From the NCBI GenBank assembly GCA_012295275.1, contig CM022670.1:12028001-12092000 (forward strand): 64,000 bases of DNA, in the 5' to 3' direction. A program made the translations under genes and the position numbers. This DNA comes from Chrysomallon squamiferum. Its lineage: Eukaryota > Animalia > Mollusca. The notes beneath the pieces are model-generated. The model did not search any database and had not been told where the DNA came from. It saw only the letters and a list, made by a program, of their open reading frames with translations. Shown here piece by piece: positions 9,082-59,366 of the stretch. Within the stretch, counting starts at the first letter, position 1, and each line of letters begins with the position of its first letter.

Positions 9082-10836
9082 ATGGCGGAAGCAGATTTTA
9101 GGACGTGCAGCATTTGTATAGAGCAGTTTAAAATACCAAAACTTTTGCCGTGTTTTCATACATTTTGTTGTAACTGTTTACAACAGTATGTTTTAAATTC
9201 TGGTGACAATGGAACATTTTCTTGCCCTGTTTGCAGATTTGAGGTCACTGTGCCCGAGGGTGGAATCGAAGAGTTTCAAACGAATTTCTATATTGAGGCT
9301 GAAGCTGAGAGAAAGGATTTTAATCCCACGACATCATGCGGTGTATGTTCAAATCCCGCAACGAGAAAATGTCTTGAATGCGAACAGTTCCTTTGTAAAT
9401 CATGTGCAGCCGTCCACAATTCTCTGGTAGGAACAAGAACTCACACAACTTTGAAACTGGGAGAAGTGAGTGAAGAAACTGAAATTATTTCCAAACCTAA
9501 ATTTTGTATAAAACATAAAGACGAAATTATAAGATTTTATTGCCGTCCGTGTGAGAAACCAATATGTCGAGACTGCAAACTGACGTCACACGAAGGACAC
9601 AAAACAGAAGATCTCTGTGACCTGGTCAATGATGCAAAATCGTCTTTGACAAAAACGAAGGCTGATTTTGAAATCTGTGTACAAAATACAAACGCCAGAC
9701 TCGACTTAATTAAAGCTCGAAGAATGAACGTGGAAAGGTCACGAACAGAAATACACAGAGAGATAAATAAGAAAACGGACAGTCTAATAACGCTGATTAA
9801 TGAATGTCGCCAAAATGAAATAGAGAGAATTAATGACGTTGCTCAAACTGAAGTAAAATCTCTCAAAGATAAAGAGTCCGAAAATCTGCTTAAAAAACGA
9901 AGTCTGCTGGCTCAGATTGATCACGTAACTACAATGCTGTCCACTGGTCTAGACGCAGATGTCATGACGACAGCAGTGGAAGTTAAAAAAGTGCTGCGCG
10001 ATGTTCAACATACCCACGAGATGGATTCTCCTTTTTATACTGAAACACCAGAACAGTTCATTCTGGAAGGTCAAAATTCAAGACAATGGTTAAATACAAT
10101 TGCTTCATTGACTGCCATTATGATCATATCACAGGCCAAGAATCTGCGAATAAAAAGGATAATTCATTTTACTAACCAGTTAGTAGATGTTATAGGACCA
10201 GTTTCAGATATCGACGGTTCTTGGATCAGTTGTATCTCTGCAGGAAGCCAGTATTACTTCCTATATCTGGTCAGTGTGGAAGGCAAAATAACGAAGAAAA
10301 TTATTGTTAATAAAGACAGATACAACCATATTAGACGAATGGGAATGAAAGGATTAGCAGTTATTCCGAGTGGAGAACCTTCTAACTGTGAGAAATGCGA
10401 GGTGAACAACGACAGCAAAGAAAAAAAACAAGTCAGTTCAGAAGATGGAGCACCGAAGATTTACACATTTACTGGGAAAAACACTCCCCTGTACGACACA
10501 AAGCCAAACGGTGTGCGTTGCCGTGTAGATTTTAAAAACAACTCTGTGGAAATAACTATGTCTGATGGAAAGAAAATAAGCTGTAACAAGGATGATGGAC
10601 TGAAATACCGAACTGAATTTTGCCCACGCGACGTCTGCTGGGGTTTGAAAGATGACATCTTCATCGCAGACTGCGGTTTGAATGTCGTTCATCAATATCA
10701 CGTGACAGAAGGTTTCAAAAACAGTTTTGTGATGAAAGATAAATCGTTTTCACCTACAGCAGTTGCTGTTGATCATGTTGGGAAACTGTGGATAGGTGAA
10801 AGTAATGGTCGAATTTCCATTTGCGATATTTATTGA
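9082..10836 (+). CDS. Intronless TRIM (RBCC) E3 ubiquitin ligase with C-terminal NHL-like beta-propeller segment (TRIM2/3/56/71-like), 584 aa
   Basis: C3HC4 RING (CSIC..LPCFHTFCCNC..CPVC), B-box1 (CGVC..CLECEQFLCKSCAAVH..H), B-box2 (CIKH..FYCRPCEKPICRDCKLTSHEGH) and a coiled coil. The C-terminus is NHL-like (PRDVCW..IFIADCGLNVVHQY..SPTAVAVDHVGKLWIGESNGRI). Start context is acaATGG and AATAAA follows near 10884. Confidence 0.93.
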   Translation: MAEADFRTCSICIEQFKIPKLLPCFHTFCCNCLQQYVLNSGDNGTFSCPVCRFEVTVPEGGIEEFQTNFYIEAEAERKDFNPTTSCGVCSNPATRKCLECEQFLCKSCAAVHNSLVGTRTHTTLKLGEVSEETEIISKPKFCIKHKDEIIRFYCRPCEKPICRDCKLTSHEGHKTEDLCDLVNDAKSSLTKTKADFEICVQNTNARLDLIKARRMNVERSRTEIHREINKKTDSLITLINECRQNEIERINDVAQTEVKSLKDKESENLLKKRSLLAQIDHVTTMLSTGLDADVMTTAVEVKKVLRDVQHTHEMDSPFYTETPEQFILEGQNSRQWLNTIASLTAIMIISQAKNLRIKRIIHFTNQLVDVIGPVSDIDGSWISCISAGSQYYFLYLVSVEGKITKKIIVNKDRYNHIRRMGMKGLAVIPSGEPSNCEKCEVNNDSKEKKQVSSEDGAPKIYTFTGKNTPLYDTKPNGVRCRVDFKNNSVEITMSDGKKISCNKDDGLKYRTEFCPRDVCWGLKDDIFIADCGLNVVHQYHVTEGFKNSFVMKDKSFSPTAVAVDHVGKLWIGESNGRISICDIY

Positions 10837-10900
10837 AAAGAAATGTGTTATCTGTAGTTATTTCTTCTTCAGTTTTATACGACAATAAATAAAATAATAA

Positions 10901-10932
<32 letters not shown>

Positions 10933-11591
10933 TATGTTTCCATTGTCAACAGACTAACCAAACACACTAATCAATTATTCAGATCTTTATATAATAATTA
11001 TGCGGTAGCATAAAAAAACCAGTGACCATCATACATTTCATTGGCTAAGATTAACGGATTACTCATGTATAATTATTTATTAAATAATTTTCCGAAAAAA
11101 GAAAAAAAGATATAAGAGAAACACATTTTTTAAAAAGGTGTTGACTTATAAAAGTATAATCAACCCCTCTATTTCCGCACTAGAATGATGTTACAAATCG
11201 GTAATGTGATCACCACGAAAACATATCAACAACATGGGAGTAAAAAGGGAACTCTTTTCTTTAAAAAAAGAAAGAAAAAAACTAGATCGTTTCACTGTCA
11301 GTGAATTTGATATTGCTCAGTTTGATTTATCTATTTATTTAATGAAACTTTAATGAAAAAAAAAAAAAAAAAAATAAAAAAATGATGCAGCTTATTTTGT
11401 TTTTTGTTTGATGCTGCTGTTGTTGACTTTTTGGGGGGTTTTAAGCGTGTATCGCTGAATCGGCAAAGATCTATAGTCGCAGCCAAACAGGTCTGTACAA
11501 AACCTGTAATAAGTACATTCATGTATGCAAGATGTTTTCATGGTTATCTTTTTTTTCTTTTCTTTTCTTTTTTAAGTAAGTAAGTAAGTAA

Positions 11592-11647
<56 letters not shown>

Positions 11648-12050
11648 CAAATCTAAGAAATTATAAAATGAAATAAAACATAATAAAGAATACCATTTAA
11701 TCAGTTACATAATACAATATCTAATTGTGTGTGGGATTGAAATAGTGAAGTATAATATGCATTATAGTTTTGATTGTAAAAGCTTGGATACAGAATACAT
11801 TTTAGGAATTTTTATATTTATATAGTGTCAGTTTTCTTGAAAAGTGCTTTTGAAAAGAACATTTTAGATTTCATAACACCATATTTTAGGAGAGGTGTGG
11901 TGTGCAATTAATAATAAATACACATGGATGAAATGTGGAAGCCTTTTTGAAAAAACTATCAACATCACATCATCAGTCTGATCCAGAACTGCTAACTGGA
12001 AATTGATATTTTAAAAAAACCTTTTAAATATTATTATTATTGTTGCTATG

Positions 12051-12091
<41 letters not shown>

Positions 12092-13545: not shown

Positions 13546-14343
13546 TTATTGTTTTTTATCTTTTAATGACTGTTCCTCTTCGTAAAGTTTATTTCGAACC
13601 TCTGTAATAATTTCTCCCAGCAGATTCTTTCCTTTCCATTTACTACGGTCTCTGGCTTCAGGTGCCTTCTCACTCAGACCAATGCCCCAGATTCTGTCAC
13701 GAGGATTACATTCCACAAAATGTTTGGGGTACGTTTCAAGTAATATTTTCTTTAGATGTGGATTTTGCAAAAACTGAAATCAAATACAGAAACAAAGAAA
13801 TATAACAGAAGTGATATACAAAAATAATAATAACGCATAATAATACTAATACTAAATCTGTATATAAAATACAAGTTCAAAAGTACTTAATTATAATCTG
13901 ATAAACATTAATATTATATATATATATATATATATAAAAACACAATTTTAAATTTATTAAATATTACATTATATTGGTTTGCTGGATACATTATTTTCTA
14001 TAAAAATACTCTGATTTATATTTTTTGATGGTCAGTTGTATTGTGAATCAGTATTTGTTCTGTTTAGCTGTGCGTTTATATGAATTATTAATAATTAAAA
14101 AAGACTGTCTAATTTGTAAAATCTATAACCTTTTCTTCAGTTGCACGTTTTACAATATTCCGAGCTTTTTCCCTCCAAATCTTCACATCAAAGTTTTTAA
14201 CTTTTCTTCCGAGACGTTTTTGAATTACTGGACTTGTAGCTTTAAGAATGCTTTGTTTCATTTTTTCATCATGGAATGTAACTGTAATTAGTTATCATAA
14301 TGTATTATGTACATGTGTTTGTTGTGTGTGCATGTGCATATAA

Positions 14344-14382
<39 letters not shown>

Positions 14383-15248
14383 TTTAATAATAATAAATAA
14401 ATAAATAAATAAAATAATAAATTGAAAAAAAAAAAAAAATAATAATTGTAAAAAATATCTCGTTTGTACATCTATAAAACATTACTCCAACTATATTGTT
14501 CATTAATCTGTAAGTTCAGTTTTCATCTAGTTAAGTTTGCCAAACAAATGTTAAAAATATTTAAATAAATATGAAGTAAGGAGAAAATAAAGTAAAAATA
14601 ACACAGCCTCAATTATTGTTACCAGGGCCTGATTTCTCATATAGGCTTTCTAGGCTGGTGCCTAGGGCAACAGTTTATGTTATATCAATTCATATTTTCA
14701 CATTTAATTTATAAATAAATCATTATGTAAATGTAAAACCATGTTTTTGTTTTCAACTAGGTCATAAGTTATAACCATTCATATTATATAAACTAAGTGG
14801 GAAGGGTGAGGGGGACTTGAGCCTTGAGGAAAGGGCAGTAAAATTTCTTTAGCCTTGGGCGGCAAGCATATTAAATCGAACCCTGATTGTTACTTTAACT
14901 GTAACGTCATGTGAAATTAAAAGAAGTAATTGACGATTTACCTGCTTTCATGTACATCATGTATTGCTCAGCACAATTAAACGTGATGCCGTCGATTTCA
15001 AATTTAGCTAGATGATGCTGACTGAAAGGCGATTCTTTACCAAAAAATAAAATATATTTTTGTTTAACTTCAGATTTTGAATGATGGTGGTTTCGTTTAC
15101 CATCATGTTTTGATTCGTTTGCGATCTCGGATTTGATAAGTGATGTCGATTTCCGATTTTGGTTTCGGTTTCCATTCGTATTCTGATTATGACCCATCAA
15201 GTTATTTTCCATTATCTCACAGTTTCTGTTTTCTGTTAGTGAATCCAT
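13546..15248 (-). CDS. NADAR/YbiA-family N-glycosidase gene 1 (single domain, 3 exons, 228 aa)
   Basis: Exons 15248-14942, 14281-14130 and 13773-13546 have GT-AG introns and join in frame. Translation: FFGKESPFSQ..FNCAEQYMMYMKAVTFHD..LGRKVKNFD..W..KFLQNPHLKKILLET..VECNPRDRIWGIG..WKGKNLLGEIITEVRNKL, which contains the NADAR signature motifs. Confidence 0.92.
14623..14885. mobile_element. hAT-type MITE in intron 1 of NADAR gene 1
   Basis: Imperfect TIRs CAGGGCCTGATTT / AAATCGAACCCTG, with a perfect 8-bp TSD ATTGTTAC (14615-14622 and 14886-14893). Paralogous introns show the empty site. Confidence 0.9.
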
Positions 15249-16941: not shown

Positions 16942-17738
16942 TCATTTGCAAATCTCAGACGTCTTATCATTCAGTGGCTGTTCCTCAAGATAAAGTTTAT
17001 TTCGAACCTCTGTAATAATTTCTCCCAGCAGATTCTTTCCTTTCCATTTCCTACGGTCTATGGCTTCAGGTGCCTTCTCACTCAGACCAATGCCCCATAT
17101 TCTGTCACGAGGATTACATTCCACAAAATGTTTGGGGTACGTTTCAAGTAATATTTTCTTTAGATGTGGATTTTGTAAAAACTGAAATCAAGTACAGAAA
17201 GAAAAAACATTTTAATGCCTGAAAAGAGAAGTGATATATGAGAATAATAAAAAATTAAAGTAAAATAATAGTAATAATATATCTGTATATAAAATGGAAG
17301 TTCAAAAGAATTTAATTACATCTGATAAACATTAATGTTAATATATATATATATATATATATATTAAATTTATTAAATATCACATTATATTGGTTTGCTG
17401 GATTTTAATTTCTATAAAAATACGCAGTTTTATATTTTTGACGGTCTGTTGTATTGTAAATATGTATTTGTGCTATGTTTATTTGTGTGTGTTTACATGA
17501 ATTATTAATAATTAAAAAAGACTGTTTAATTTATAAAATCTACAACCTTTTCTTCAGTTGCACGTTTTACAACGTCCGGAGCTTTTTCCATCCAAATATC
17601 CACATCAAAGTTTCTAACTTGTCTTCCAAGACGTTTCTGAATTCCTGGTTCAGAAGCTTCGAGAATTTCTTGTTTTATTTCTTCGTCATGGAATGTAACT
17701 GCAATGAACTATCATAATGTATTATGTGCGTTTGTGTG

Positions 17739-17784
<46 letters not shown>

Positions 17785-20700
17785 TAAATAAATAAAATAA
17801 AATAAAATAAAATAAAATAAACAATAATAAAATCAAATCTGGTAGGTCTGTCTATAAAAATCTATAAGCTAGATTTTCATCTGGTTAAGCTTGTCATACA
17901 AATGTCAGATATGAATAAATACAATGTAAGCAAAAAATAAAGTAAAAAATAACATTTCTGCAACTAAATATAACACAGTAACAGTGATTGTTACATTAAC
18001 TGTAACGTTATGTGATACGGGCCGGTTCAGCAATGCAGTTATTTCGAGTTATGTCCCTTGATTTCTTGTTAGATGCCGCTGCGCTTCCGGGTAGTAAAAA
18101 CCAGATCGGCTAGTGCGAAAAACACAGCACGACGAAGCAAACTTTTATCAACAAAACATACTCTAACTACCCGCGACATAAGCCCGTTGACACGTCGATA
18201 ACTGACCAGAATCTCTCCACTCCTTACTGACTGATTGCAGAGCCAGAGGTAGGATTTCATTACGAAACAATTAAATTATTTATCCAACATACTCTGTATG
18301 TAAACAAACTCAAACAGTTACAAACTAACAAAGGGCTTTAACTTTACCCAGCGTGTCGGATGTGGTCACCTTGTCCTGTTACCTGTGGCACAGGTATAAG
18401 ATCCGCTCCAAATTGCCATATAATATTAGAAAGTTAAATGTAATAGTTAAAGGAACTAAACATTACTATAATACTTTCCTCAATTCGTCTTTCTTAAAAT
18501 CGGCATACAATTTAAAATGGTAATGCCAGACAAGTCGGTTCCGGGGACAACTCGGCCCAGAATCCAATGCCGCACAGGGACAATCTTGTCTATTGTTGGA
18601 CAAGTGTTGTTTTTTAAATTAAAGTATTCTCACCGAAAAAAAAAAAAAAAAAAAGTGTTTTTGTTAGTATTGAATTAGTTCCACCTTGACCTAAACGTCC
18701 CGAACCGAAGTGTCATGTCCGATTGATAAATTTCTGGCACACAACAGTACTTCTTACCCATCCTGTGAAAAAATATATATGTGGCAATATCGAGTTTTAT
18801 CTTTATATAATGGTATTTTATAACATTTGTAATGTTTTCTGTAACTAATTAAATTATTGTTATTTACAGGTAATCATTGTATGCATGATATGTTTTTAAT
18901 GTTTAGTATATCTAATTAATCCAATGTCTCATTCAGGTATTTCTGAAAATGATAGGTGCTACTTTAATTTAATTATTTACTTATAATATTGCTTCTTTAT
19001 TTCAGTCAGCTTGTTAACTGGTGATATGTTGATTAAAACGCAAGCATGAATCTAACTATAGCACTTGCATTCTGTAGCTGAGTCTGTCCTTAGTTCTAAA
19101 CTTTCAAGCTTGGGTCTAGTGTAAGCTGGTATTCTACCTTAGTGTTTCTGTCCAGCTTCTAATTATATAATCTTTAGCATATAATATTATCACTATTGCT
19201 GTGATTTTGTATTCTTAGAGAATTTCTAAGGTTAGTTATTTGTTGTATTCATGTTTCTTATTTAGAGTATTTATTTACAGGCAGATACTAAATGTAAATT
19301 AATGTTGTGGATTAAATCAGTACATTATAATATAATGTATTAATACATAAAATAACTCTCCTACAACTATATTTATCTAAAGTAATCAAATGACAGGTGA
19401 AGTATAAGTTCTAATGTCTAAATGGTAAAGTAATTAATATTATGATTTCTTGTAACTAAATTCTAAGCGGTTTTAACGTTAAATTAATTGTGTGATAGTT
19501 AACTGGGAGTAAGATGTTTGTACAGTTTGCATTCTCGGAAGAGACAGTTTATTTTATGCTATGACCAGTATTGCTATTAATATAATTATGGACTTTGGAT
19601 TATAGTGTTTGTACAATACTTAGTGCGTTCTATTATTTTATTTAGATCGCTATTGTTGAATGCGTGTGTTGGTTACCGGCCAGCTGTTTAATATTAGTAA
19701 CACAAACTTGGTTGTACATGATTTTGTAGCTAGCTATATGTTTATAATTTAATGACGTTGTGATGTATATGAATATGTTAAACGTTAGTAATGAATGTAT
19801 TAGGAAAATATGGACTGTATAACTGCACGAAGGAATAACATATGGTATTATGTCATATATACTGTTTGACAGGAACCATACATTAGCGATATGTGGCAAG
19901 ATAGATATGTTTAATTAATTATGACAGTCTAGGGAATCTATACGTATGCATTTGTTATTGTGATGTCATATTTTGCAGCCTTGTTGTATTTAAATTTATT
20001 GATTTGATTGTTTCAGGGTTTTAAACATACATTGTGTGTGATGTCAAATAAAAAGCCATTGTCCTGAAACTACAGCTGTTTGTCGTATTTTTGAAAAGAA
20101 ACTCAAATACAGTTACATATATTATAAATCTTAAACACAACACACAGATATATAATACATGTACATAAGAATAATCAAACTGTATGACTGGTACAACATC
20201 CCATTCCGATTTCAGTAACATGTTTTTAACAACTTTAATTACATTTACTTAAGCTAATAGTAACATAGATAGTCCAAGATCTGGTCACAGTCTACATTTC
20301 ATTGTTTTCGTAGCGCTGCTATAACCAGAAGGTAATTAATCACACAGTATCATGCAGCATCCAAGTGGATGTTTACCTTCCTGCTCCCTGGATCGTAAAG
20401 GTTGCACTTGGACTAAGTCAAATGGTTTAGGGTCAAGAGTTCGAGGTGGAAAATCATAAGGAGTTACTACAACTGCAGCTCTGATTGGTGGTTATAGGTG
20501 ACAGTGACTATTAACTTTTGTGCAAAGCAAGCGGTACCACCCGGAAGTGAGGAGGATTCGCGGAAATATGTTTTACATTGCGGAACCGGCCCAATGTTAA
20601 AAGTAAATAAATACAAAGTAACTAACTATAACACAGTAACAATGACTGTTCCATTAACTGTAATCTCATGCAAAACAAAAAGAAGTCATAGACGACTTAC

Positions 20701-21007
20701 CTGCTTTCATGTACATCATGTATTGCTCAGCACAATTAAACGTGATGCCGTCGATTTCAAATTCAGCTGGATAATGCTGACTGAAAGGCGATTCTTTATG
20801 AAAAAATAAAATATATTCTTCTTTAAATTCAGATTTTGAATGATCCTGGTTTCGTTTACGATCATGTTTTGGTTCGTCTGCGAAATCCGATTTTCTACGC
20901 GATGTCGGTTTCTGATTTTGGTTTCGGTTTCCGTGCTTATAGTGATTATGAAATATCCAGGTATTTTCCGTTTTCTCACTGTTTGTGTACCCTGTTACTG
21001 GATCCAT
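16942..21007 (-). CDS. NADAR gene 2 (single domain; 2.6 kb TIR element in intron 1)
   Basis: Exons 21007-20701, 17698-17547 and 17181-16942, GT-AG, same phases as gene 1. A small deletion near the stop alters the C-terminal tail. Confidence 0.87.
18019..20592. mobile_element. Non-autonomous TIR DNA element (PIF/Harbinger-like termini), long copy
   Basis: 17-bp TIRs GGGCCGGTTCAGCAATG / CATTGCGGAACCGGCCC (1 mismatch). No transposase ORF and no matching TSD, so the superfamily is tentative. Confidence 0.75.
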
Positions 21008-22146: not shown

Positions 22147-22430
22147 TTATTGCTTTTTATCATTCAGTGCCTGTTCCTCAAGATAAAGTTTATTTCGAAC
22201 CTCTGTAATAATTTTTCCCAGCAGATTCTTTCCTTTCCATTTACTAGGGTCTTTGGCTTCAGGTGCCTTCATTTTCAGACCAATACCCCAAATCGTGTCA
22301 TATGGATTGCATTCCACAAAGATTTTGGGGTACGTTTCAAGTAATCTTTTCTTTAGATGTGGATTTTGTGAAAACTGAAATCAAATACAGAAAGAAAGAA
22401 ATATTTGAATTCCTAATAAAAATGAAACAA

Positions 22431-22487
<57 letters not shown>

Positions 22488-23536: not shown

Positions 23537-23593
<57 letters not shown>

Positions 23594-24395: not shown

Positions 24396-24446
<51 letters not shown>

Positions 24447-43494: not shown

Positions 43495-43566
<72 letters not shown>

Positions 43567-46500: not shown

Positions 46501-48884
46501 TGGCTTCAGGCGCCTGTTTACTCAGACCAATGCCCCAGATGCAGTCATGAGGATTACATTCCACAAAATGTTTGGGGTAATGTTTCAAGTAATATTTTCT
46601 TTTTTAGATGTGGATTTTATGAAAACTGAAATCAAATACAGAAACAAAGAAATATAACAGAAGTGATATACAAGAATAATAATAATTTAAAATTAAATAA
46701 TAAATCTGTATATAAAAATGAAAGGTCAAAAGAAATAAATTACATCTGATAAACATTCATGTTTTATATATATAAGACAGAATTTTAAATTTATTAAATA
46801 TTGCATAATATTGGTTTGTTGGTCATTTTTTATCTTTCATAAAAATATTCTGTTTTATATCTTTGATGCTGTATTGTAAATCTATATTTGTGGTAGAATT
46901 AGTTGCGTGTTTATGTTTAGATGAATTATTAATAATTTAAAAAGACTGTTTGATTTTGGTAAAATCTACAACCTTTTCTTCAGTTGCATGTTTTACAACA
47001 TCCCGGACTTTTTCCATCCAAATGTCCTCATCGACGTTTCTAACTTTTCTTCCAAGACGTGTTTGATTTCTTGGTGTAGTAGCCTTAAGAATTTCTTGTT
47101 TGATTTCTTCATCGTGGAATGTAACTGTAATTAGTCATCGTAATGCATTATGTACACGTGTTTGTTGTATGTATATGTGTATGTATTTATATGTATACAT
47201 ATAAACATATAATAAACAAAATAAATAAAGAGATAAATTATAATAGATTTCTTTTCTTCCTTTCTATTATAAAAAAATAATTAAAAAAATGGACTTGTAT
47301 ATAGTTATAAAACACGACTCCACCTATACAATCAAATAGTTTGTAACATCGATTTTCATGTTTGCCATACAGTTATCAAAAAAGAAATCAAGAAAACAAA
47401 AAAACCCGAAAAGAATAATAATAATAAATAAAAATAAATAAATAAACATAAATACATAAATAACTAAAATAATAATAATATAAAGTAAGAAGAACGTGAA
47501 GTAAAAATAAGATTTTTAGAATTAAGTATAACACAATAACAACGATTGTTACATTAACTGTAATGCCATGATAAAGTAAAAGAAGTAATAAACGATTTAC
47601 CTGCTTTCATGTACATCATATATTGCCAAGCACAATTAAATTTGATGCCGTCGATTTCAAATTCAGCTGGATGATGCTGACTGAAAGGCGATTGATTACC
47701 AAAAAATAAAATATATTCTTCTTTAACTTCAGATTTTGAATGACCTTCAGACTCTGCTTTAGTTTCTGAATATAAATCCGTCTCTTCCAGGTTTTGCAAT
47801 TTACTAGCTGCTGCTGAAAGAATTGGTTTCTGATTATGGTTATTTTTTTCACCCATCTGGTCCGATTTATTTTCCATTATTTCATATTTTCTTTCCTCAT
47901 CATAAAGTTTATTTCGAACCTCTGTAATAATTTCTCCCAGCAGATTCTTTCCTTTCCATTTACTACGGTCTCTGGCTTTAGGTTCCGTTTTATTCAGACC
48001 AATGCCCCAGATGCAATCATGAGGATTACATTCCACAAATGGTTTGGGGTACGTTTCAAGTAATATTTTCTTTAGATGTGGATTTTGTGAAAACTGAAAT
48101 CAAATACAGAAACAAAGAAATATAACAGAAGTGATATACAATAATAATAATAATAATTTAAAATTAAATAATAAATCTGTATATGAAATGTCAAAAGAAA
48201 TTAATTACATCTGATGAAGATTAATGTTTCATATATATATGAGACAGAATTTTAAATTCATTAAATATTGCATAATACTGGTTTACTGGTCATTTTTTTT
48301 CTTCTATAAAAATACTCTGTTTTATATCTTTGATGGTCACTGTTGTATTGTAAATATATATTTGTGCTACAATTAGTTGCGTGTTTATGTTTAGATGAAT
48401 TATTAATAATTTAATAAGACTATTTAATTTGTAAAATCTACAACCTTTTCTTCAGTTGCTCGTTTTACAACATCCCGAGCTTTTTCCATCCAAATGTCCA
48501 TGTCAAAGTTTCTAACTTGTCTTCCAAGACGTTTTTGAATTCCTGGTTCAGTAGCTTCGAGAATTTCTTGTTTTATTTCTTCGTCATGGAATGTAACTGT
48601 AATTAGTCATCGTAATGCATTATGTATATGTGTTTGTTTATATATATATATCATAAATAGAAAATAAATAAATAGATAAATTATAGTAGATTCCTTTTCT
48701 TCCTTTTTATAACAAAATCAAATTAAAACAAAAACAAAAAAATTGTATAGCTATAAAACACAACTCAGACTATACAGTCCAAGAGTTTGTAACATCCATT
48801 TTCATGTGGTTAAGAAAAACAAAAAACAAATAATAATAATAATAATAATAATACGAAAAAAAAACAAATAAAATAAAATTAAAA

Positions 48885-48936
<52 letters not shown>

Positions 48937-51415
48937 AATACAAAGTAAGGTGAAAGAGAACAAAAAATAACATTTCTAGAATTAAGTATAACACAATAAC
49001 AACGATTGTTACATTAACTGTAATGCCATGATAAAGTAAAAGAAGTAATAGACGATTTACCTGCTTTCATGTACATCATATACTGCTCAGCACAATTAAA
49101 TCTGATGCCGTCGATTTCAAATTGAGCTGGATGATGCTGACTGAAAGGCGATTCTTTACCAAAAAACAAAATATATTCTTGTTTAACTTCAGATTTTTCA
49201 CATTTTGTGTCCTCTTCATAAAGTTTATTTCGAACCTCTGTAATAATTTCTCCCAGCAGATTCTTTCCATTCCATTTACTACGGTCTCTGGCTTCAGGCG
49301 CCTGTTTACTCAGACCAATGCCCCAGATGCAGTCATGAGGATTACATTCCACAAAATGTTTGGGGTACGTTCTAAGTAATATTTTCTTTAGATGTGGATT
49401 TTGTGAAAACTGAAATCAAATACAGAAACAAAGAAATATAACAGAAGTGATATACAAGAATAATAATAATTTAAAATTAAATAATAAATCTGTATATAAA
49501 ATGAAAGGTCAAAAGAAATAAATTACATCTGATAAACATTCATGTTTTATATATATAAGACAGAATTTTAAATTTATTAAATATTGCATAATATTGGTTT
49601 GCTGGTCATTTTTTATCTTTCATAAAAATATTCTGTTTTATATCTTTGATGCTGTATTGGAAATCTATATTTGTGGTAGAATTAGTTGCGTGTTTATGTT
49701 TAGATGAATTATTAATAATTTAAATAGACTGTTTAATTTGTGAAATCTACAACCTTTTCTTCAGTTGCACGTTTTACAACATCCCGAGCTTTTTCCATCC
49801 AAATGTCCATGTCAAAGTTTCTAACTTGTCTTCCAAGACGTTTTTGAATTCCTGGTTCAGTAGCTTCGAGAATTTCTTGTTTTATTTCTTCGTCATGGAA
49901 TGTAACTGTAATTAGTCATCGTAATGCATTATGTATATGTGTTTGTTTCTATATATATATCATAAATACAAAATAAATAAATAGATAAATTATAATAGTT
50001 TCCTTTTCTTCCTTTTTATAACAAAATCAATTTAAAAAAAAAAAAAAAAAAATTTATAGCTATAAAACACAACTCAGACTATACATCCAAGAGTTTGTAA
50101 CATCGATTTTCATGTGGTTAAGAAAAAAAAAAAAAAAAAAAAAAAAATAATAATAATAATAATAATAATAATAAGAAAAAAAAAAACAAATAAAATAAAA
50201 TAAAAATAAATAAATAATAATACAAAGTAAGGAGAAAGAGAACAAAAAATAACATTTCTAGAATTAAGTATAACACAATAACAACGATTATTACATTAAC
50301 TGTAATGCCATGATAAAGTAAAAGAAGTAATAGACGACATACCTGCTTTCATGTACATCATATACTGCTCAGCACAATTAAATCTGATGCCGTCGATTTC
50401 AAATTGAGCTGGATGATGTTGACTGAAAGGCGATTCTTTACCAAAAAACAAAATATATTCTTCTTTAACTTCAGATTTTTCACATTTTGTGTCCTCTTCA
50501 TAAAGTTTATTTCGAACCTCTGTAATAATTTCTCCCAGCAGATTCTTTCCATTCCATTTACTACGGTCTCTGGCTTCAGGCGCCTGTTTACTCAGACCAA
50601 TGCCCCAGATGCAGTCATGAGGATTACATTCCACAAAATGTTTGGGGTACGTTCTAAAGTAATATTTTCTTTAGATGTGGATTTTGTGAAAACTGAAATC
50701 AAATACAGAAACAAAGAAATATAACAGAAGTGATATACAAGAATAATAATAATTTAAAATTAAATAATAAATCTGTATATAAAATGAAAGGTCAAAAGAA
50801 ATTAATTACATCTGATAAACATTCATGTTTTATATATATAAGACAGAATTTTAAATTTATTAAATATTGCATAATATTGGTTTGCTGGTCATTTTTTATC
50901 TTTCATAAAAATATTCTGTTTTATATCTTTGATGCTGTATTGTAAATCTATATTTGTGGTAGAATTAGTTGCGTGTTTATGTTTAGATGAATTATTAATA
51001 ATTTAAAAAGACTGTTTAATTTGTGAAATCTACAACCTTTTCTTCAGTTGCACGTTTTACAACATCCCGAGCTTTTTTCTATCCAAATGTCCATGTCAAA
51101 GTTTCTAACTTGTCTTCCAAGACGTTTTGAATTCCTGGTTCAGTAGCTTCGAGAATTTCTTGTTTTATTTCTTCGTCATGGAATGTAACTGTAATTAGTC
51201 ATCGTAATGCATTATGTATATGTGTTTGTTTCTATATATATATCATAAATACAAAATAAATAAATAGATAAATTATAATAGTTTCCTTTTCTTCCTTTTT
51301 ATAACAAAATCAATTTAAAAAAAAAAAAAAAAAATTTATAGCTATAAAACACAACTCAGACTATACAGTCCAAGAGTTTGTAACATCGATTTTCATGTGG
51401 TTAAGAAAAAAAAAA

Positions 51416-51447
<32 letters not shown>

Positions 51448-52675
51448 GAAAAAAAAAAACAAATAAAATAAAATAAAAATAAATAAATAATAATACAAAG
51501 TAAGGAGAAAGAGAACAAAAAATAACATTTCTAGAACTAAGTATAACACAATAACAACGATTATTACATTAACTGTAATGCCATGATAAAGTAAAAGAAG
51601 TAATAGACGACATACCTGCTTTCATGTACATCATATACTGCTCAGCACAATTAAATCTGATGCCGTCGATTTCAAATTGAGCTGGATGATGTTGACTGAA
51701 AGGCGATTCTTTACCAAAAAACAAAATATATTCTTGTTTAACTTCAGATTTTTCACATTTTGTGTCCTCTTCATAAAGTTTATTTCGAACCTCTGTAATA
51801 ATTTCTCCCAGCAGATTCTTTCCATTCCATTTACTACGGTCTCTGGCTTCAGGCGCCTGTTTACTCAGACCAATGCCCCAGATGCAGTCATGAGGATTAC
51901 ATTCCACAAAATGTTTGGGGTACGTTCTAAGTAATATTTTCTTTAGATGTGGATTTTGTGAAAACTGAAATCAAATACAGAAACAAAGAAATATAACAGA
52001 AGTGATATACAAGAATAATAATAATTTAAAATTAAATAATAAATCTGTATATAAAATGAAAGGTCAAAAGAAATTAATTACATCTGATAAACATTCATGT
52101 TTTATATATATAAGACAGAATTTTAAATTTATTAAATATTGCATAATATTGGTTTGCTGGTCATTTTTATCTTTCATAAAAATATTCTGTTTTATATCTT
52201 TGATGCTGTATTGTAAATCTATATTTGTGGTAGAATTAGTTGCGTGTTTATGTTTAGATGAATTATTAATAATTTAAAAAGACTGTTTAATTTGTGAAAT
52301 CTACAACCTTTTCTTCAGTTGCACGTTTTACAACATCCCGAGCTTTTTCCATCCAAATGTCCATGTCAAAGTTTCTAACTTGTCTTCCAAGACGTTTTTG
52401 AATTCCTGGTTCAGTAGCTTCGAGAATTTCTTGTTTTATTTCTTCGTCATGGAATGTAACTGTAATTAGTCATCGTAATGCATTATGTATATGTGTTTGT
52501 TTCTATATATATATCATAAATACAAAATAAATAAATAGATAAATTATAATAGTTTCCTTTTCTTCCTTTTTATAACAAAATCAATTTAAAAAAAAAAAAA
52601 AAAAATTTATAGCTATAAAACACAACTCAGACTATACAGTCCAAGAGTTTGTAACATCGATTTTCATGTGGTTGG

Positions 52676-52710
<35 letters not shown>

Positions 52711-54474
52711 ATAATAATAATAAAAAAAAAAACAAACAAAATAAAATAAAATAAAAAATAAATAAATAATAATACAAAGTAAGGAGAAAGAGAACAAAAA
52801 ATAACATTTCTAGAATTAAGTATAACACAATAACAACGATTATTACATTAACTGTAATGCCATGATAAAGTAAAAGAAGTAATAGACGACATACCTGCTT
52901 TCATGTACATCATATACTGCTCAGCACAATTAAATCTGATGCCGTCGATTTCAAATTGAGCTGGATGATGTTGACTGAAAGGCGATTCTTTACCAAAAAA
53001 CAAAATATATTCTTCTTTAACTTCAGATTTTTCACATTTTGTGTCCTCTTCATAAAGTTTATTTCGAACCTCTGTAATAATTTCTCCCAGCAGATTCTTT
53101 CCATTCCATTTACTACGGTCTCTGGCTTCAGGCGCCTGTTTACTCAGACCAATGCCCCAGATGCAGTCATGAGGATTACATTCCACAAAATGTTTGGGGT
53201 ACGTTCTAAGTAATATTTTCTTTAGATGTGGATTTTGTGAAAACTGAAATCAAATACAGAAACAAAGAAATATAACAGAAGTGATATACAAGAATAATAA
53301 TAATTTAAAATTAAATAATAAATCTGTATATAAAATGAAAGGTCAAAAGAAATAAATTACATCTGATAAACATTCATGTTTTATATATATAAGACAGAAT
53401 TTTAAATTTATTAAATATTGCATAATATTGGTTTGCTGGTCATTTTTATCTTTCATAAAAATATTCTGTTTTATATATTTGATGCTGTATTGTAAATCTA
53501 TATTTGTGGTAGAATTAGTTGCGTGTTTATGTTTAGATGAATTATTAATAATTTAAAAAGACTGTTTAATTTGTGAAATCTACAACCTTTTCTTCAGTTG
53601 CACGTTTTACAACATCCCGAGCTTTTTCCATCCAAATGTCCATGTCAAAGTTTCTAACTTGTCTTCCAAGACGTTTTTGAATTCCTGGTTCAGTAGCTTC
53701 GAGAATTTCTTGTTTTATTTCTTCGTCATGGAATGTAACTGTAATTAGTCATCGTAATGCATTATGTATATGTGTTTGTTTATATATATATATCATAAAT
53801 ACAAAATAAATAAATAGATAAATTATAATAGTTTCCTTTTCTTCCTTTTTATAACAAAATCAAATTTAAAAAAAAAAAAAAAAAAATTTATAGCTATAAA
53901 ACACAACTCAGACTATACAGTCCAAGAGTTTGTAACATCGATTTTCATGTGGTTAAGAAAAAAAAAAAAAAAAAAAAATAAAAAAAATAATAAAAAAAAA
54001 AAAAAAAAAATAAAATAAAATAAAAATAAATAAATAATAATAATACAAAGTAAGGAGAAAGAGAACAAAAAATAACATTTCAAGAATTAAGTATAACACA
54101 ATAACAACGATTATTACATTAACTGTAATGCCATGATAAAGTAAAAGAAGCCATAGACGACTTATACCTGCTTTCATGTACATCATATACTGCTCAGCAC
54201 AATTAAATCTGATGCCGTCGATTTCAAATTGAGCTGGATGATGCTGACTGAAAGGCGATTCTTTACCAAAAAACAAAATATATTCTTCTTTAACTTCAGA
54301 TTTTGAATGGTCCTGGTTTTGTTTAGGATGATGTTTTGATTCGTCTGTGAACTCCGATTTTCTACGAGATATCGGTTTCTGGTTTTGGTTTCGGTTTCTG
54401 TTCGTATATTGATTATGACCCATGCAGTTATTTTCCTTTTTCTCACGGTTTGTGTTTTTTGGTACTGAATCCAT
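32126..54474 (-). CDS. NADAR gene 5: poly-NADAR gene with 17 tandem domains (35 exons, ~3000 aa if homopolymer indels are errors)
   Basis: First exon 54474-54168 and terminal exon 32353-32126. Seventeen ~152-bp middle exons have low ends at 53587, 52308, 51037, 49754, 48445, 46973, 45689, 44412, 43126, 41846, 40572, 39291, 38022, 36739, 35454, 34163 and 32682. Sixteen fused exons of ~349 or 493 bp have low ends at 52895, 51616, 50343, 49061, 47601, 46274, 44995, 43718, 42433, 41152, 39879, 38598, 37330, 36046, 34760 and 33326. Internal units lack their own start region and stop codon; a short unit is 501 nt (167 aa). Confidence 0.82.
33560..54300. repeat. Tandem array of ~1.28 kb coding units (about 16 periods)
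   Basis: Near-identical exon+intron units recur about every 1.28 kb and differ mainly in poly-A/(AAT)n tract lengths. Confidence 0.95.
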
Positions 54475-56130
54475 GCTTCGGTTATTCGGTATATATGTCA
54501 TAAAATAAAATAAAGTCAAGCCATTAAGGTGACAATGTACAGAATGTTGCAATCCGTAACTTCCTTACTTTTATTATTGTTGGTGAGCATTGCACAACTT
54601 CGTCACATATGGAAGAAAGATAACTCCAATTGATGTGTTTTGCATCGGTATGAATAATCACAACCGACTTAGTCGACTAATACGTTTTTTGCTTGTTTTT
54701 TTTGTTTATGTGAAGACACACTCTAAATATTATTATTATTATTTTTTGTTATTAATATTTATCTCCATTGTTTCTATAATGTTTCTTCTTGTTGTGAGAA
54801 AACAATTCTGGTATCAGACCACAAGAACGGGATGTGAACTCTTTTATAAGTATTGTTTGTATACCATACTTTGTTGCAAGTCATTAAACTAATACTTGTA
54901 ATATTTAAAGATATTGATTAAACTTTTTTCCCCACTCCCATCAGTTAGACTTTAATACTTGTTACCTATGATTTTATCATATAAAATATACAATATTTTA
55001 TTCTTTATATTGTAAAGTAAGTTTTTAGTCTCGTGACTGTGACGTTTTTGTCGCTGACTAAATCAGCTACTATTTGTATAAATAAATTGTAATAATAATA
55101 CTATTAATCAAATTTAAACAGAACTAAATCTGAATAAATAAATACATATATTACCTCTTAATGAAATAATGCTTGTAAACATTGCTTCAGAATCATGGAA
55201 TTAAATCTTTCATTTTTATTTTTTAAAATACCTTCTTATTATTTTTTTTTTTTTATCATACCAATTTAAAAATTAGTCGCACTTCATAGATACTTTTCAA
55301 TGAATGCTTCGTACACTATGAAATATTTTAATTTATAAATCTTTAACATATATTAATAGCCTGTTTCTCTGGAGCAAATTATTTTTAAGCTGTATAAAGG
55401 TATTATAATTAATCGTATGTTATAACAGTTAAACAAGCACTAATATTAATATTCAGACTTTATTTTCATTTCAGCAGCAGTAATAGTAACAGCAGCGTTG
55501 TCGTGACATTAACAGTAGCGGCAGCAGTAGTATTATTTTATTATGTTTTATATAGTTATTAAAATATAGTAGTGGCTTCTAGATGCAGTAGTAGTAGCTA
55601 GGTGTAATATAATGGCGTGGTAGTAGTAATAATAGTTATATATAGTGTTTAAACAGAAATGAAGAACGTGATCGTCAGAGATATAATAAAGGCTGGTTTA
55701 CTGCTAGCGTTGTTTTATCTCACAGTAAGAAAAAGAAACTTTAATGCTTGGTAACAAATACAGCTAATATGGATACAGTTTGTATGCTTATATTATTAAT
55801 TGTTAATAAAACATAAAACAAAAATCTAAGCTTATAATATTTATTGCACAGTAGGGACATATACTTCTTTTGTATTCTTTTTTTCATTATGTCATTATAA
55901 ATGAATAAATAAAAAGGAATATTTTCAAAAATAATTCTGAAGTAGAGAGAGAGAGAGAGAGAAAGTGTCGTCATTCATACCTTCTTAGTATCTCGTTATT
56001 TTCTGTATTGTAAAAAAGTCTTTACTTCGAAATATAAAAATATATTTAAGCTATGTAATAATATTATTAAAGATATATATATTTTTTAAACAAATATATA
56101 CAAATTTAATTTAGAGTTTAAAGGCAGATT

Positions 56131-57902
56131 TCATTTATACACATCACACACTGAAATTCGACCGTTATTTTCACCTATCCATAACTTCCCACGACTATCC
56201 ATAGCAACTGCCGTCGGCGAAAATGCTAAAAGTTCGGGTAAAAAACTGCTTTTGAAACCCTCTGTCACCTGATACTGATGAACGACATTCAAACCACAGT
56301 CAGCGATGAAGACGTCATCTTTCAAACCCCAGCAGACGTCGCGTGGATAAAATCCAATTCTGTGTTCCAAGTCTTCCCCTATATTGCAAGTGAACTCTGC
56401 TCCATCTGCTAAACAAATCTGTACAACTTTGTTAGTGGTATCTACCAAACACGTATCACCATTTTCTTTTTTATGAAACACTGGAACATTTTTGCCGGAA
56501 ATCTGTAAGCCTTAGGAAGAGATAAATCATCACCAGAATCTGGCTTGAACTCGACCTGTTTTCTCACGTTTGATTCGCTCGTCTGGCAACTGGAACCTTC
56601 CCCGGTCAAAAGGGAGAGAAGTCCCTCCATTCTGACCTTATTGTACAGGTCTTTGTGTAGACTCATTCTTTTGGAGATGACTCCAGTTTCACTGACTAGA
56701 TACACGTCATTATTTCGACACCCTTCGCTTTTACAGCCGATCCATGCACTGCTGGTGTTAGACAGAGGACCTATCAGGTCTATCGAGTGACTGATACAGT
56801 GAAAGGTCGAAGTCGGTTTCAGGTGGTCAGAGTTCGATGCAACCACTTTACTTGCGAAAACAGTGGCTATGTTTGTGAAAACGTTCATCCATTGTTTCGC
56901 AGCAGGATTTTTAATAAACATTTTTTCAATGGATGGCCTAGCTGCAGTATGGGCTTCTTTTTCGCATTTCACATCTTTCTGAAGCTTCTTTATTTCCGAT
57001 GCCGCTGTCACAGTGTCAGCCTCAAGTCCATTGGATAAAGCCATAGTGACGTGGTAAATCTGGGCTTGCAAATTCTGTTTATTTAATAATATTTCGTTCC
57101 ACGATTCTCCGAGAGTTTCCAAGCAGGCTACTTCTCGTTGTACAATGTCGTCAATTCTGTTCAGTTCACTAGTACGGTAATCATTAACTTCAGCAATAAT
57201 ACGATCAGCTAATTTGTTAATATCTGCGTGCATTTTTAACCTTTTGTTTTCCATGCTATTTTTTCTAGCGTCCATTATCCGAAGCTTAGTATCTAAACAT
57301 TCTATGCAATGTTCTAAATGTACCTTCGTTTTCGTCAAATACGATTTTGCATCATTAACCAGGTCACAGAGATCTTCTGTTTTGTGTCCTTCGTGTGACG
57401 TCAGTTTGCAGTCTCGACATATTGGTTTCTCACACGGACGGCAATAAAATCTTACGATCTCTGCTTTATGTTTCATACAGAACTGAGGTTTGCAAGTTAT
57501 TTCACTTTCTTCACTCAGTCCACCCAATTTTATAATCGAGTGTGTTTTAAAAGCAGTCAGTGAATTATGATTGGCAGTGCAAGATTGACAGAGAAACTGC
57601 ATACAGTCAAGACATTTTCTTGTTGCATGATTCGAACAAACATGACATGAAGTTTTCAAAGCTTCAGCACATGTATCACCGTCTCCCTCGATGTAAAAGT
57701 TTCTTTGAAACTCTTCGACTCCACCCTCGGGCACCTTGACCTCAGCTCTACAAATCGGACAGGAAAACCTTCCGTTTACCGCAGAATTTGATACATAATG
57801 TTTTAGACAATTACAACAAAATGTATGAAAACACGGAAGAAGTTTCGGAACTTTAAACTGCTCAATACATATTGTACAAGTTCTGTGATCTCTCATAGCC
57901 AT
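56131..57902 (-). CDS. Second intronless TRIM paralog (~590 aa), with a 1-bp frameshift near 56500 in this assembly
   Basis: ORF 57902-56442 (RING, 2 B-boxes, coiled coil) and ORF 56481-56131 (NHL-like end) are together colinear with the 9082 gene. Adding one base at TTT-CC-GGC gives F-S-G-K-N-V-P-V-F, matching F-T-G-K-N-T-P-L-Y in the paralog. Confidence 0.88.
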
Positions 57903-58359
57903 TGAAATGGGTCAAGTGCTTTATAATCAACTCCGTAATGTGAAACGTTTCCTTGCTAGTAATTCGGTTCAGTTGTGTAACATCTCATTAGTTCGCCCTG
58001 TAAAATGTTCCGGGATAATTAACTTTTTAATATAACGTTTATATTTAACTTTTTTTGCAGGTTTCAGATTAAAGCAAAGTTAGTTATGTTAGATCTCTTC
58101 AAAATTTTCTACATTAAATTATGTAATGCATTTTATTCATTCTTATAATTATACTCGTGCTGAATTGCGTTTTAAATATACATTTGTACACATTTTTTGA
58201 TAAATGTTTATTTGGTTATCTCACATCTCCGACAATTTTGGTGTTTCTCGTTTTAGATGTTTTTCTTTATACAAAGATTAAAAACAATAATAAAAAGAAC
58301 AAACAAATTTATCACATTTCTTTTCTTTTTCAAATTATATAATGTATGAGTGTGATAAA

Positions 58360-58625
58360 CTATGTAACTGCATGGGTCATGAGACCTTCTTCCATCATCA
58401 GGTCATTCCTTACTTCCGTTAAAATGTAACCAAGGAGATTTTGTCCTCGCCATGTACTTTCGTCCCAAGCGTAAGGATCATCTTCAACATAACCAATTCC
58501 CCATATAACGTCCACTGGACTCGCTTTTACTAATATTTTAGGAAATGTATCAAAGAGTAGCTTCTTTAAACTTTGATTCTGCGAAAACTGGAAAAAAAAA
58601 AAAGAACAAGAACACAGAAAAAAAA

Positions 58626-58672
<47 letters not shown>

Positions 58673-59141
58673 AACTATAGATAGACACATTTAAGGGATA
58701 CACACAGACAGATAGACAGAGAGATAGATGATAACAGTGAAATAATTATCTTTTTAGTAATGACATGTCGCATAATGCAGACACAGAGAGATACTTCATT
58801 ATTTGATAAACTAGTCTCTGTTTGGAACGGGATATAGCTCAGTCGTCACACTGAAACAGAGTGATATTTCAACGGTTTCTTACCTTCAGAATCGATGCTT
58901 CTCTAACAATCTGCTTGCACGAGCTGTCCCACATATCTTGGTTCCAGTTGCGAACTTTACGTCCTAAATATTTGTGCTCTTTGGGATCAGGGGACCAAAG
59001 AATTATTTTTGCAATCTCCGAATCTCTGAACAAAACTGTAACATCAGAAAAACTAATTCTATAATAATGAATTGGTCCAAGAATTATTATCTATTTAAAT
59101 TATATATATGTAATCTTACAGCAGGCTGGAAGAGAGAAATA

Positions 59142-59197
<56 letters not shown>

Positions 59198-59366
59198 TAC
59201 CTGCCTTTTTGTACATCATATACTGTTCGGCGCACACATATTCGCGATTTCCATCTTTGAATTTAACCAGATATCCCTGACTAAACGGCGATTCTTCTTT
59301 CCAGAAATACTCGTATTTTGTTTTTGCTTCTGCTAAAGTTGTCTTAGATTCACATTCGGATTCCAT
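58360..59366 (-). CDS. NADAR gene 6, divergent single-domain paralog (~181 aa)
   Basis: Exons 59366-59201, 59035-58884 and 58587-58360 have the same intron positions and the same 152/228-bp exon sizes as the array genes. Translation: YFWKEESPFSQ..CAEQYMMYKKAVLFRD..LGRKVRNW..KFSQN..LVKASPVDVIWGIG..WRGQNLLGYILTEVRNDL. The start codon is uncertain. Confidence 0.9.

What the first reader, a model, noticed from the sequence alone, without database searches (positions are those of the whole stretch)
9082..59366. TRIM-NADAR island: 23 NADAR domains interleaved with two TRIM E3 ligases as a candidate animal defence locus against nucleic-acid ADP-ribosylation
Seen: convergent intronless TRIM paralogs bracket five NADAR genes, and a sixth NADAR sits just upstream of the right TRIM on the same strand. 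Known: animals lack riboflavin synthesis, so the YbiA role is unlikely. NADARs reverse guanine ADP-ribosylation, guanine-N2 DNA ADP-ribosyltransferases occur in animals (clam CARP-1, butterfly pierisins) and bacteria (DarT1, ScARP/Scabin), and TRIM56-like ligases act in innate immunity. Inference: a fast-evolving immunity or antitoxin cluster coupling de-ADP-ribosylation with ubiquitination, against microbial toxins or for self-protection. No ART toxin gene is visible in this window.
Basis: partly seen in the sequence, partly recalled or inferred. Interest (0 to 1): 0.85.

Follow-up and report, generated by a model that had tools for sequence, protein, structure and literature searches.

The report
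Snail 17-domain NADAR array beside TRIMs
A genome that is likely a snail's carries 23 copies of an enzyme domain (NADAR), 17 of them chained in one transcribed gene, predicted to strip ADP-ribose from DNA and RNA bases and likely guarding against microbial toxins; abalones multiplied the same domain separately, probably beside the same ubiquitin-ligase gene, but no working link between the two is shown.

Summary
In detail: 23 NADAR domains in six minus-strand genes, two convergent TRIMs, PPP1R8 beyond. The best relatives come from the gastropod Gigantopelta aegis. Gene G5 chains 17 domains (about 3,000 aa) from a 1.28-kb unit. The array looks real: DNA depth is 10-15 times single copy in two runs. 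G5-type exons are spliced in RNA-type libraries of two studies. The right TRIM's frameshift is an assembly error. 20 of 23 domains keep the catalytic E/K/E set; G6, next to the right TRIM, has E125K. Abalones carry related TRIMs on the same scaffolds as NADAR clusters (within 3.5 Mb in H. rubra), and H. rufescens has its own recent 8-domain array. One RNA contig runs from spliced G6 into the right TRIM. Against coupling: no TRIM-NADAR fusion was found, TRIM paralogs lie on other chromosomes, background synteny is unmeasured, and paralog dN/dS is about 0.55. Animal NADARs as toxin defence are already proposed in print. Verdict: a new variant of a known kind, an old TRIM-linked NADAR locus amplified in parallel. 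Defence is likely; ubiquitin coupling is unproven.

The parts
9082..10836 (+). TRIM-L: RING, two B-boxes, coiled coil and a C-terminal beta-rich domain that resembles NHL repeats; 584 aa, intronless coding region
   Evidence: ORF; Pfam; model pLDDT 71, pTM 0.40; top Foldseek hits are TRIM2 NHL domains, E 5e-7, low TM
13546..15248 (-). G1, single-domain NADAR gene (3 exons), catalytic E/K/E intact
   Evidence: its 3' end matches RNA contig ends in X8 and X9
16942..21034 (-). G2, single-domain NADAR gene, E/K/E intact
22147..26199 (-). G3, two-domain NADAR gene; one 1-bp indel per domain in the assembly; first domain has W at the E43 site
   Evidence: indels not checked against reads
28341..31046 (-). 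G4, single-domain NADAR gene, E/K/E intact
   Evidence: its 3' end matches RNA contig ends exactly
32126..54501 (-). G5, 17-domain NADAR gene (about 3,000 aa if in frame), built from a 1.27-1.29 kb unit in which exon C of one domain is fused to exon A of the next; two longer linkers; unit 6 has W at the E43 site
   Evidence: DNA depth 10-15x single copy; spliced exon-only cover and linker bridges
56131..57902 (-). TRIM-R, paralog of TRIM-L (50% and 62% identical in two blocks), 589 aa; the assembly lacks one base near 56496
   Evidence: extra base in 4 of 4 runs
57903..58359 (-). 458-nt spacer between G6 and TRIM-R, crossed unspliced by one RNA contig; holds three AATAAA/ATTAAA hexamers
   Evidence: X8 record 21
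58360..59366 (-). G6, single-domain NADAR of a separate, conserved ortholog group (71% identical to G. aegis P0008 over 182 columns), with K in place of the catalytic E125 (codon 58525-58527)
   Evidence: an X9 contig matches 58373-58585 with no difference
61547..63930 (+). PPP1R8/NIPP1-like gene (FHA domain), head-to-head with G6; neighbour, partial in the window
   Evidence: Pfam FHA; exon translations; gene name assigned from recalled motifs

Best explanation
This is an old gastropod NADAR locus beside a TRIM gene in which one NADAR was recently multiplied, likely by unequal crossing-over, into five genes including a transcribed 17-domain chain that is predicted to remove ADP-ribose from guanine (and perhaps cytosine) bases and likely raises the dose of a defence against microbial nucleic-acid ADP-ribosylating toxins, while the TRIMs are long-standing neighbours with no shown role in that reaction. 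Shown: anatomy, spliced transcription, extra DNA depth, catalytic residues, scaffold-level linkage in abalones, separate recent arrays. Inferred: enzyme activity (from residues and family data), the amplification mechanism (from tandem near-identical units), and the defence role (from published animal precedents).
For: Array real and expressed: a DNA contig over the unit has depth 819.5 against 55-69 for single-copy contigs in X1, and 60.1 against 4.2-6.1 in X2. Four libraries from two studies cover exons only, with zero intron depth, spliced B-C and A-B ends and no indels. X6 contig ends match the long linkers unique to G5 exactly. Residues: alignment to Phytophthora NADAR 8BAU maps E43, K50 and E125 onto the motif positions kept in 20 of 23 domains. 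All NADAR families tested remove G-ADPr, including a sponge enzyme (PMC12945103; PMC11833690). Selection: 36 of 36 paralog pairs have dN/dS below 1, mean about 0.55. Recurrence: H. rufescens has an 8-domain isoform with six 642-aa repeats 97-99.7% identical, only 40% identical to the G5 unit; Patella vulgata has a 4-domain protein. Precedent for immunity: ladybird RNAi (cited in PMC12945103, not read); irg-1 listed as DUF1768 and induced by PA14 (PMC3527274).
Against: No activity, induction or substrate data exist for these proteins. No toxin partner was identified and the genome could not be searched. dN/dS of 0.55 fits relaxed constraint as well as adaptation. Three window domains and the amplified abalone repeats (M at K50) have lost catalytic residues, so dose of enzyme activity cannot explain every amplification. 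In vitro activity does not predict protection in cells (PMC11125620). A full-length 17-domain mRNA is not shown. The 93-nt linker bridge in X7 is identical in G3. The G5 frameshifts were not checked copy by copy. The tool warns that contig depth is not a copy number, and X1 may be the assembly's own source.
Confidence: 0.45

Rival explanations
1. Coupled module: the NADARs and the TRIM ligases work together. G6, which lacks the catalytic glutamate, would bind ADP-ribosylated nucleic acid or protein and bring in the co-transcribed TRIM-R to ubiquitinate the target, while G1-G5 erase the mark.
For: One X8 RNA contig (1,543 nt, depth 14.2) has both G6 introns spliced out and runs unspliced through the spacer into the TRIM-R coding region to 57409; X9 pieces cover 57409-58241 and 58373-58585. 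G6 has E125K, against E in 291 of 298 motif matches among fetched relatives. TRIM and NADAR share a 3,528,375-bp contig in H. rubra with accessions 14-16 apart; they share one scaffold in H. rufescens (14-52 apart), one in H. cracherodii and one chromosome in G. aegis. An ENA TRIM and an ENA NADAR piece have the same longest-contig length, 748,444 bp. The abalone TRIM falls in the same 99%-supported clade. The TRIM tail resembles NHL folds, some of which bind RNA.
Against: A contig across two genes does not prove one transcript. Intron-covering pieces occur in the same libraries, the spacer has polyadenylation hexamers, and both libraries come from one study. G6 orthologs in G. aegis and Haliotis keep E125, so the pseudo-enzyme state is lineage-specific. 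No RING or B-box fusion among 118 longer homologues or 38 long representatives. Sister TRIMs lie on five other G. aegis chromosomes. Accession gaps are 470-600 in G. aegis and H. cracherodii, so accession order is only a rough proxy. Background microsynteny between these snails was not measured.
Confidence: 0.2
2. Tandem-repeat hotspot: once duplicated, the 1.28-kb unit expands and contracts by unequal crossing-over and gene conversion with little benefit, and many copies are decaying.
For: Units are nearly identical in introns as well as exons. dN/dS is about 0.55, one pair 0.99. Catalytic substitutions occur in G5 unit 6, G3 domain 1 and G6, and a stop codon in unit 6. The inverted TRIMs show conversion-like patches of 92-100% identity. 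Two RNA contig ends match no copy in the window, which suggests variable alleles or further paralogs.
Against: Reading frame and splice sites are kept in the expressed majority. All 36 pairs have dN below dS. Separate amplification in abalone, probably at the same locus, and in Patella is more than a single accident would give.
Confidence: 0.15
3. Housekeeping role: the enzymes clear endogenous ADP-ribose from nucleic acids, detoxify N-ribosyl metabolites (including riboflavin intermediates supplied by microbes), or act in RNA processing like the three-domain nematode SNA-3.
For: These roles are described for other NADARs (PMC11125620; PMC9503650). G6 has one conserved ortholog in G. aegis and Haliotis. 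The Haliotis ortholog has an N-terminal extension that looks like a mitochondrial presequence by eye (untested).
Against: Lineage-specific, repeated amplification is more typical of conflict genes than of housekeeping genes (general knowledge). The G1-G5 group, not the conserved G6 group, is the one that expanded.
Confidence: 0.15
4. Assembly artefact: the 17-unit array is a noisy long-read expansion of a gene with one or a few domains.
For: 13 coding indels in 8 of 17 domains, nearly all in mononucleotide runs. The assembly has 1-bp errors in single-copy DNA too.
Against: The depth ratio is 12-15 in X1 and 10-14 in X2, from different studies. Units carry distinct, shared substitutions (0-2.4%, up to 8.8% for the two variant units). 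G5-specific linkers appear in RNA contigs.
Confidence: 0.05

Closest known systems
Stand-alone eukaryotic NADARs with shown activity: Phytophthora nicotianae NADAR (PDB 8BAU) and Amphimedon queenslandica NADAR (PMC11543638, PMC12945103)
   Same: Same family (PF08719); best solved-structure match, E 5e-33 with the profile of relatives; E43/K50/E125 kept in 20 of 23 domains.
   Different: Those are studied as single domains. Here 17 near-identical domains are chained in one gene, within a six-gene cluster; activity is untested.
Immune-linked animal NADARs: ladybird HGT NADARs (PMID 40929802, seen only as cited) and C. elegans irg-1 (DUF1768; PMC3527274 table row)
   Same: Animal NADARs tied to bacterial challenge; the toxin-defence hypothesis is stated in PMC12945103.
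   Different: The snail genes have introns and group with mollusc sequences, not with the bacterial ones in the tree. No challenge data here.
Multi-NADAR proteins: C. elegans SNA-3 (3 domains, PMC11125620); unstudied database entries in Haliotis rufescens (LOC124129589, 7-8 domains), Patella vulgata (4), Branchiostoma (2), Mercenaria (2)
   Same: Tandem NADAR domains in one animal protein.
   Different: 17 domains exceeds the highest count among the 150 best hits from 1.84 billion representatives (7; 8 in a cluster member). Short linkers and an intact catalytic set contrast with the abalone's 480-aa acidic spacers and K50M repeats.
DarT1-NADAR (DarTG1) and YarT-YbiA toxin-antitoxin pairs
   Same: NADAR as the predicted eraser of guanine ADP-ribosylation.
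   Different: No ART gene in the window; the catalytic residue is the glutamate type, not the DarT1-linked aspartate type.
TRIM-NHL / TRIM56-like ligases of molluscs
   Same: RING, two B-boxes, coiled coil and an NHL-like tail; RefSeq names the relatives TRIM56-like or TRIM45-like.
   Different: A gastropod subfamily; no Pfam match for the tail; orthology to vertebrate TRIM56 untested; no reported link to NADAR in the searches made.

Membership tests
NADAR superfamily (PF08719), glutamate-type (YbiA / stand-alone NADAR) | Profile match to PF08719 | tested here: met
   G5 C+A exon 95.2 bits and G6 exon C 70.1 bits, cut-off 35.1
NADAR superfamily (PF08719), glutamate-type (YbiA / stand-alone NADAR) | Catalytic E43, K50 and last-strand E125 (8BAU numbering) | tested here: met
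   20 of 23 domains; W at E43 in G5 unit 6 and G3 domain 1, K at E125 in G6
NADAR superfamily (PF08719), glutamate-type (YbiA / stand-alone NADAR) | Hydrolysis of guanine-ADP-ribose | not testable with these tools
   needs an in vitro assay
DarTG1-type toxin-antitoxin system | Adjacent ART toxin gene | tested here: not met
   No other coding ORF recognised in the window; the rest of the genome could not be searched
DarTG1-type toxin-antitoxin system | Aspartate (D171-type) catalytic residue | tested here: not met
   Glutamate type in 22 of 23 domains, lysine in G6 (definition)
TRIM (RBCC) E3 ligases | RING, B-box(es), coiled coil | tested here: met
   Pfam in both proteins; 110-residue helix in the model
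TRIM-NHL / TRIM56 subfamily | C-terminal NHL beta-propeller | tested here: inconclusive
   No Pfam hit; Foldseek top hits are TRIM2/3/71 NHL domains at E 5e-7 to 2e-5 with target TM about 0.35-0.44 on a model of pTM 0.40
TRIM-NHL / TRIM56 subfamily | Orthology to vertebrate TRIM56 | not tested
   No vertebrate TRIM was in the tree
   Same 3.5-Mb contig in H. rubra; same scaffolds in H. rufescens, H. cracherodii and G. aegis; scaffold level only, gene order not seen
   No eukaryote genomes held; the paper search gave no base rate
   One RNA contig crosses from G6 into TRIM-R; no fusion in 118 plus 38 proteins

The most novel reading that the evidence does not exclude
Gastropods keep an ancient TRIM-NADAR immune locus that works as a reader-eraser-ligase unit against nucleic-acid ADP-ribosylation: a catalytically dead NADAR co-transcribed with the TRIM reads the mark and directs ubiquitination, while multi-domain NADAR chains, amplified separately in this snail (17 active domains) and in abalone (six dead repeats), erase or soak up the mark in an arms race with microbial toxins.
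Probability: 0.15. Interest if true: 0.85.

Novelty: new variant of a known kind. Interest (0 to 1): 0.58.

Why it matters
The physiological role of animal NADARs is an open question named in the recent papers (PMC11125620, PMC12945103). A locus where the domain was amplified recently and separately in at least two gastropod lineages, once to 17 intact domains in one chain, points to selection on nucleic-acid de-ADP-ribosylation in molluscs and gives concrete enzymes to assay. If the G6-TRIM read-through is real, it would be a link between base ADP-ribosylation and ubiquitin in an invertebrate. I found no paper on it in searches for NADAR with 'tripartite motif', with 'Haliotis', with 'irg-1', or for 'N-glycosidase YbiA'; the library lacks most subscription journals.

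Tried and rejected
No genome is held for this window, so no search for CARP-1/pierisin-like ART genes or further NADAR loci was possible. A scan of JGI metagenome contigs with the ENA TRIM gave 3 short, distant loci with no NADAR. Rfam found nothing at gathering thresholds. An AU test holding window and abalone repeat domains in one clade was borderline (p 0.055); separate amplification therefore rests on within-array near-identity against 40% between arrays and on different unit designs, or on continued homogenisation of older arrays. Both trees are quick searches with SH-aLRT only; the careful TRIM search did not finish. In the NADAR tree I left out three near-identical abalone repeats and domains covering under 120 profile positions. 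The residue read-out printed was off by one; residues were read from the printed peptides and checked again. The first G6 model had wrong splice sites and was corrected. One paper search was swamped by mollusc terms. A supplement search in PMC11125620 found no mollusc names in the one 6,068-character file held; its tree table may not be fully held, so mollusc entries there may have been missed. The earlier-findings look-ups by place, sequence and first word set were empty.
Full report
Anatomy. The window is AT-rich animal DNA (29% GC). Between 13.5 and 59.4 kb lie 23 NADAR domains in six minus-strand genes. Each domain is split over three exons with GT-AG introns. In G3 and G5 the last exon of one domain is fused in frame to the first exon of the next, giving 2 and 17 domains. 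G5 spans 22.4 kb and would encode about 3,000 aa. Its 14 short units differ by 0-2.4% including introns; two variant units differ by up to 8.8%. TRIM-L (+) and TRIM-R (-) are convergent RING/B-box/B-box/coiled-coil genes with intronless coding regions. The AlphaFold model of TRIM-L has a beta-rich tail whose best Foldseek matches are TRIM-NHL domains, at modest confidence. G6 ends 458 nt upstream of TRIM-R. A PPP1R8-like gene lies head-to-head with G6. The best named hits for both gene types come from Gigantopelta aegis, so the host is likely a related gastropod (inference).

Is the array real? The assembly shows a frameshift in TRIM-R, 13 indels in 8 of 17 G5 domains (one domain also has a stop), and one indel in each G3 domain. 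All 4 of 4 runs laid have one more base at the TRIM-R site, and further 1-bp differences from the assembly recur in single-copy DNA, so the assembly has residual indel errors. The G5 indels are probably of the same kind but were not checked copy by copy; contigs drop rare variants. A 534-bp DNA contig over the unit has depth 819.5 against 55-69 for single-copy contigs in X1, and 60.1 against 4.2-6.1 in X2, ratios of 10-15 that fit the 14-15 near-identical units. The tool warns that depth is not a copy number and that X1 may be the assembly's source; X2 is from another study.

Is it expressed? Laying four libraries on one unit gave exon-only cover, zero depth over the intron, spliced B-C and A-B ends and no indels. 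X8 and X9 are recorded as RNA. X6 and X7 are guessed as DNA by the tool but behave as RNA and come from another study (inference). The domain-to-domain linker is bridged in X7 (93 nt, no difference, but identical in G3) and X9 (118 nt, 1 difference; 9 G5 junctions differ from the reference by 1, G3 by 2). X6 ends match the long linkers unique to G5 exactly, and other ends match G1, G2 and G4; 2 of the 8 ends checked match nothing in the window. A full-length 17-domain mRNA is not shown.

Catalytic state. PMC11543638 (passages) identifies E43, K50 and E125 of Phytophthora NADAR (E88, K95, D171 of E. coli C7). The alignment to 8BAU (chain numbering offset by 2) places them in the CAEQY..K and VE motifs. 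20 of 23 window domains keep all three. G5 unit 6 and G3 domain 1 have W at E43; G6 has K at E125. An X9 contig matches the G6 site exactly. Among fetched relatives 291 of 298 motif matches have E there, and the equivalent E167D/Q mutants of SCO5665 are inactive (PMC12945103, passages and Discussion). Paralog dN/dS averages about 0.55 over 36 pairs, none above 1: purifying but relaxed, with no evidence of positive selection.

Relatives. G. aegis has one G1-G5-type and one G6-type single-domain protein among the hits, and the closest TRIM, all on a 102.9-Mb chromosome. In H. rubra the TRIM (XP_046578095) and a two-domain NADAR (XP_046578079-081) share a 3,528,375-bp contig. In H. rufescens the TRIM (XP_046361617 / XP_048255684), a 7-8-domain protein, a 3-domain protein, a 1-domain protein and the G6 ortholog share a 79.7-Mb scaffold, with accessions 14-52 apart. 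In H. cracherodii TRIM and G6 ortholog share a scaffold but are 470 accessions apart; in G. aegis the gap is about 570-600. An ENA TRIM and an ENA NADAR exon have the same longest-contig length of 748,444 bp. One H. rubra NADAR protein lies on a different contig. I saw no gene order; linkage is inferred from scaffold lengths and accession numbers. The abalone TRIMs, the window clade and a group of dispersed G. aegis paralogs form one 99%-supported clade. The split between abalones and the Gigantopelta lineage is Palaeozoic (recalled). The abalone array has six 642-aa repeats 97-99.7% identical, 40% identical to the G5 unit, with M at K50, so both arrays were amplified or homogenised recently and separately. 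The highest domain count among the 150 best hits from 1.84 billion representatives is 7, 8 in a cluster member. No RING, B-box or ART domain is fused to NADAR in 118 longer homologues or in 38 long proteins scanned.

TRIM link. One X8 contig joins spliced G6 to the TRIM-R coding region, and X9 pieces cover most of the spacer. This allows a read-through or two-gene transcript, but overlapping transcripts or pre-mRNA give the same contig, the spacer has three polyadenylation hexamers, and both libraries are from one study. With conserved linkage this lifts the coupling idea above chance, but background microsynteny is unmeasured and sister TRIMs lie on five other G. aegis chromosomes. Binding was not modelled.

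Literature. PMC11125620 (parts 1-3 of 6) lists NADARs in molluscs, cites three-domain SNA-3, and shows that activity in vitro does not ensure protection in cells. PMC12945103 shows an active sponge NADAR, proposes defence against microbial genotoxins and cites ladybird RNAi data (PMID 40929802, not read). PMC11833690 (passages) extends the activity to RNA. PMC9503650 (passages) covers viral NADARs. PMC3527274 (one table row) lists irg-1 as DUF1768, induced by PA14. PMC7750550 (passages) reports TRIM56-like genes up in symbiont-bearing mussel cells. Searches pairing NADAR with 'tripartite motif' (40 papers, 15 listed), 'Haliotis' (9 of 9 listed) and 'irg-1' (0), and for 'N-glycosidase YbiA' (3 of 3 listed), showed nothing on this locus by title or abstract.

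Verdict. The defence role is the likeliest function but is a published hypothesis for animal NADARs, untested here. What is new is the 17-domain, mostly intact, transcribed chain, its parallel in abalone at what is probably the same TRIM-linked locus, and the dead-site NADAR that may be read through into the TRIM. New variant of a known kind; interest 0.58; coupled reader-eraser-ligase reading about 0.15-0.2.

Noticed in passing
window 9562-9621 and 10614-10673 against TRIM-R: The two inverted TRIM paralogs share patches of 92-100% nucleotide identity in otherwise about 55% identical DNA, which suggests gene conversion.
   Followed up: partly
window 4623-4993 and 7626-7969: Inverted repeat, 91% identical over about 370 bp, including a TC/GA microsatellite; possibly a small transposon.
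   Followed up: no
window 27025-27663 and 55233-55863: A 639-bp non-coding block, 95% identical, lies upstream of both G3 and G5, showing that upstream regions were duplicated with the genes.
   Followed up: no
window 18072-18275 and 29585-29788: Related GC-richer inserts in intron 1 of G2 and G4, probably a mobile-element fragment.
   Followed up: no
P0238 / P0381 (Haliotis G6 orthologs): N-terminal extension that looks like a mitochondrial presequence by eye; the window's G6 has an open upstream frame without ATG.
   Followed up: no
P0367, P0369, P0232, P0226, P0227 (Haliotis, Patella): Multi-domain mollusc NADAR proteins mix intact domains with domains lacking E43, K50 or E125.
   Followed up: partly
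P0114, P0116, P0118, P0121 (oyster and unnamed): NADAR fused to a protein kinase domain (Nek4-like name) in oysters.
   Followed up: no
run X8, loose ends at window 53031 and 53740: Two RNA contig ends continue into sequence absent from the window: further NADAR alleles or paralogs.
   Followed up: partly
window 62222-62595: 35-bp tandem repeat, 10 copies, in an intron of the PPP1R8-like gene.
   Followed up: no
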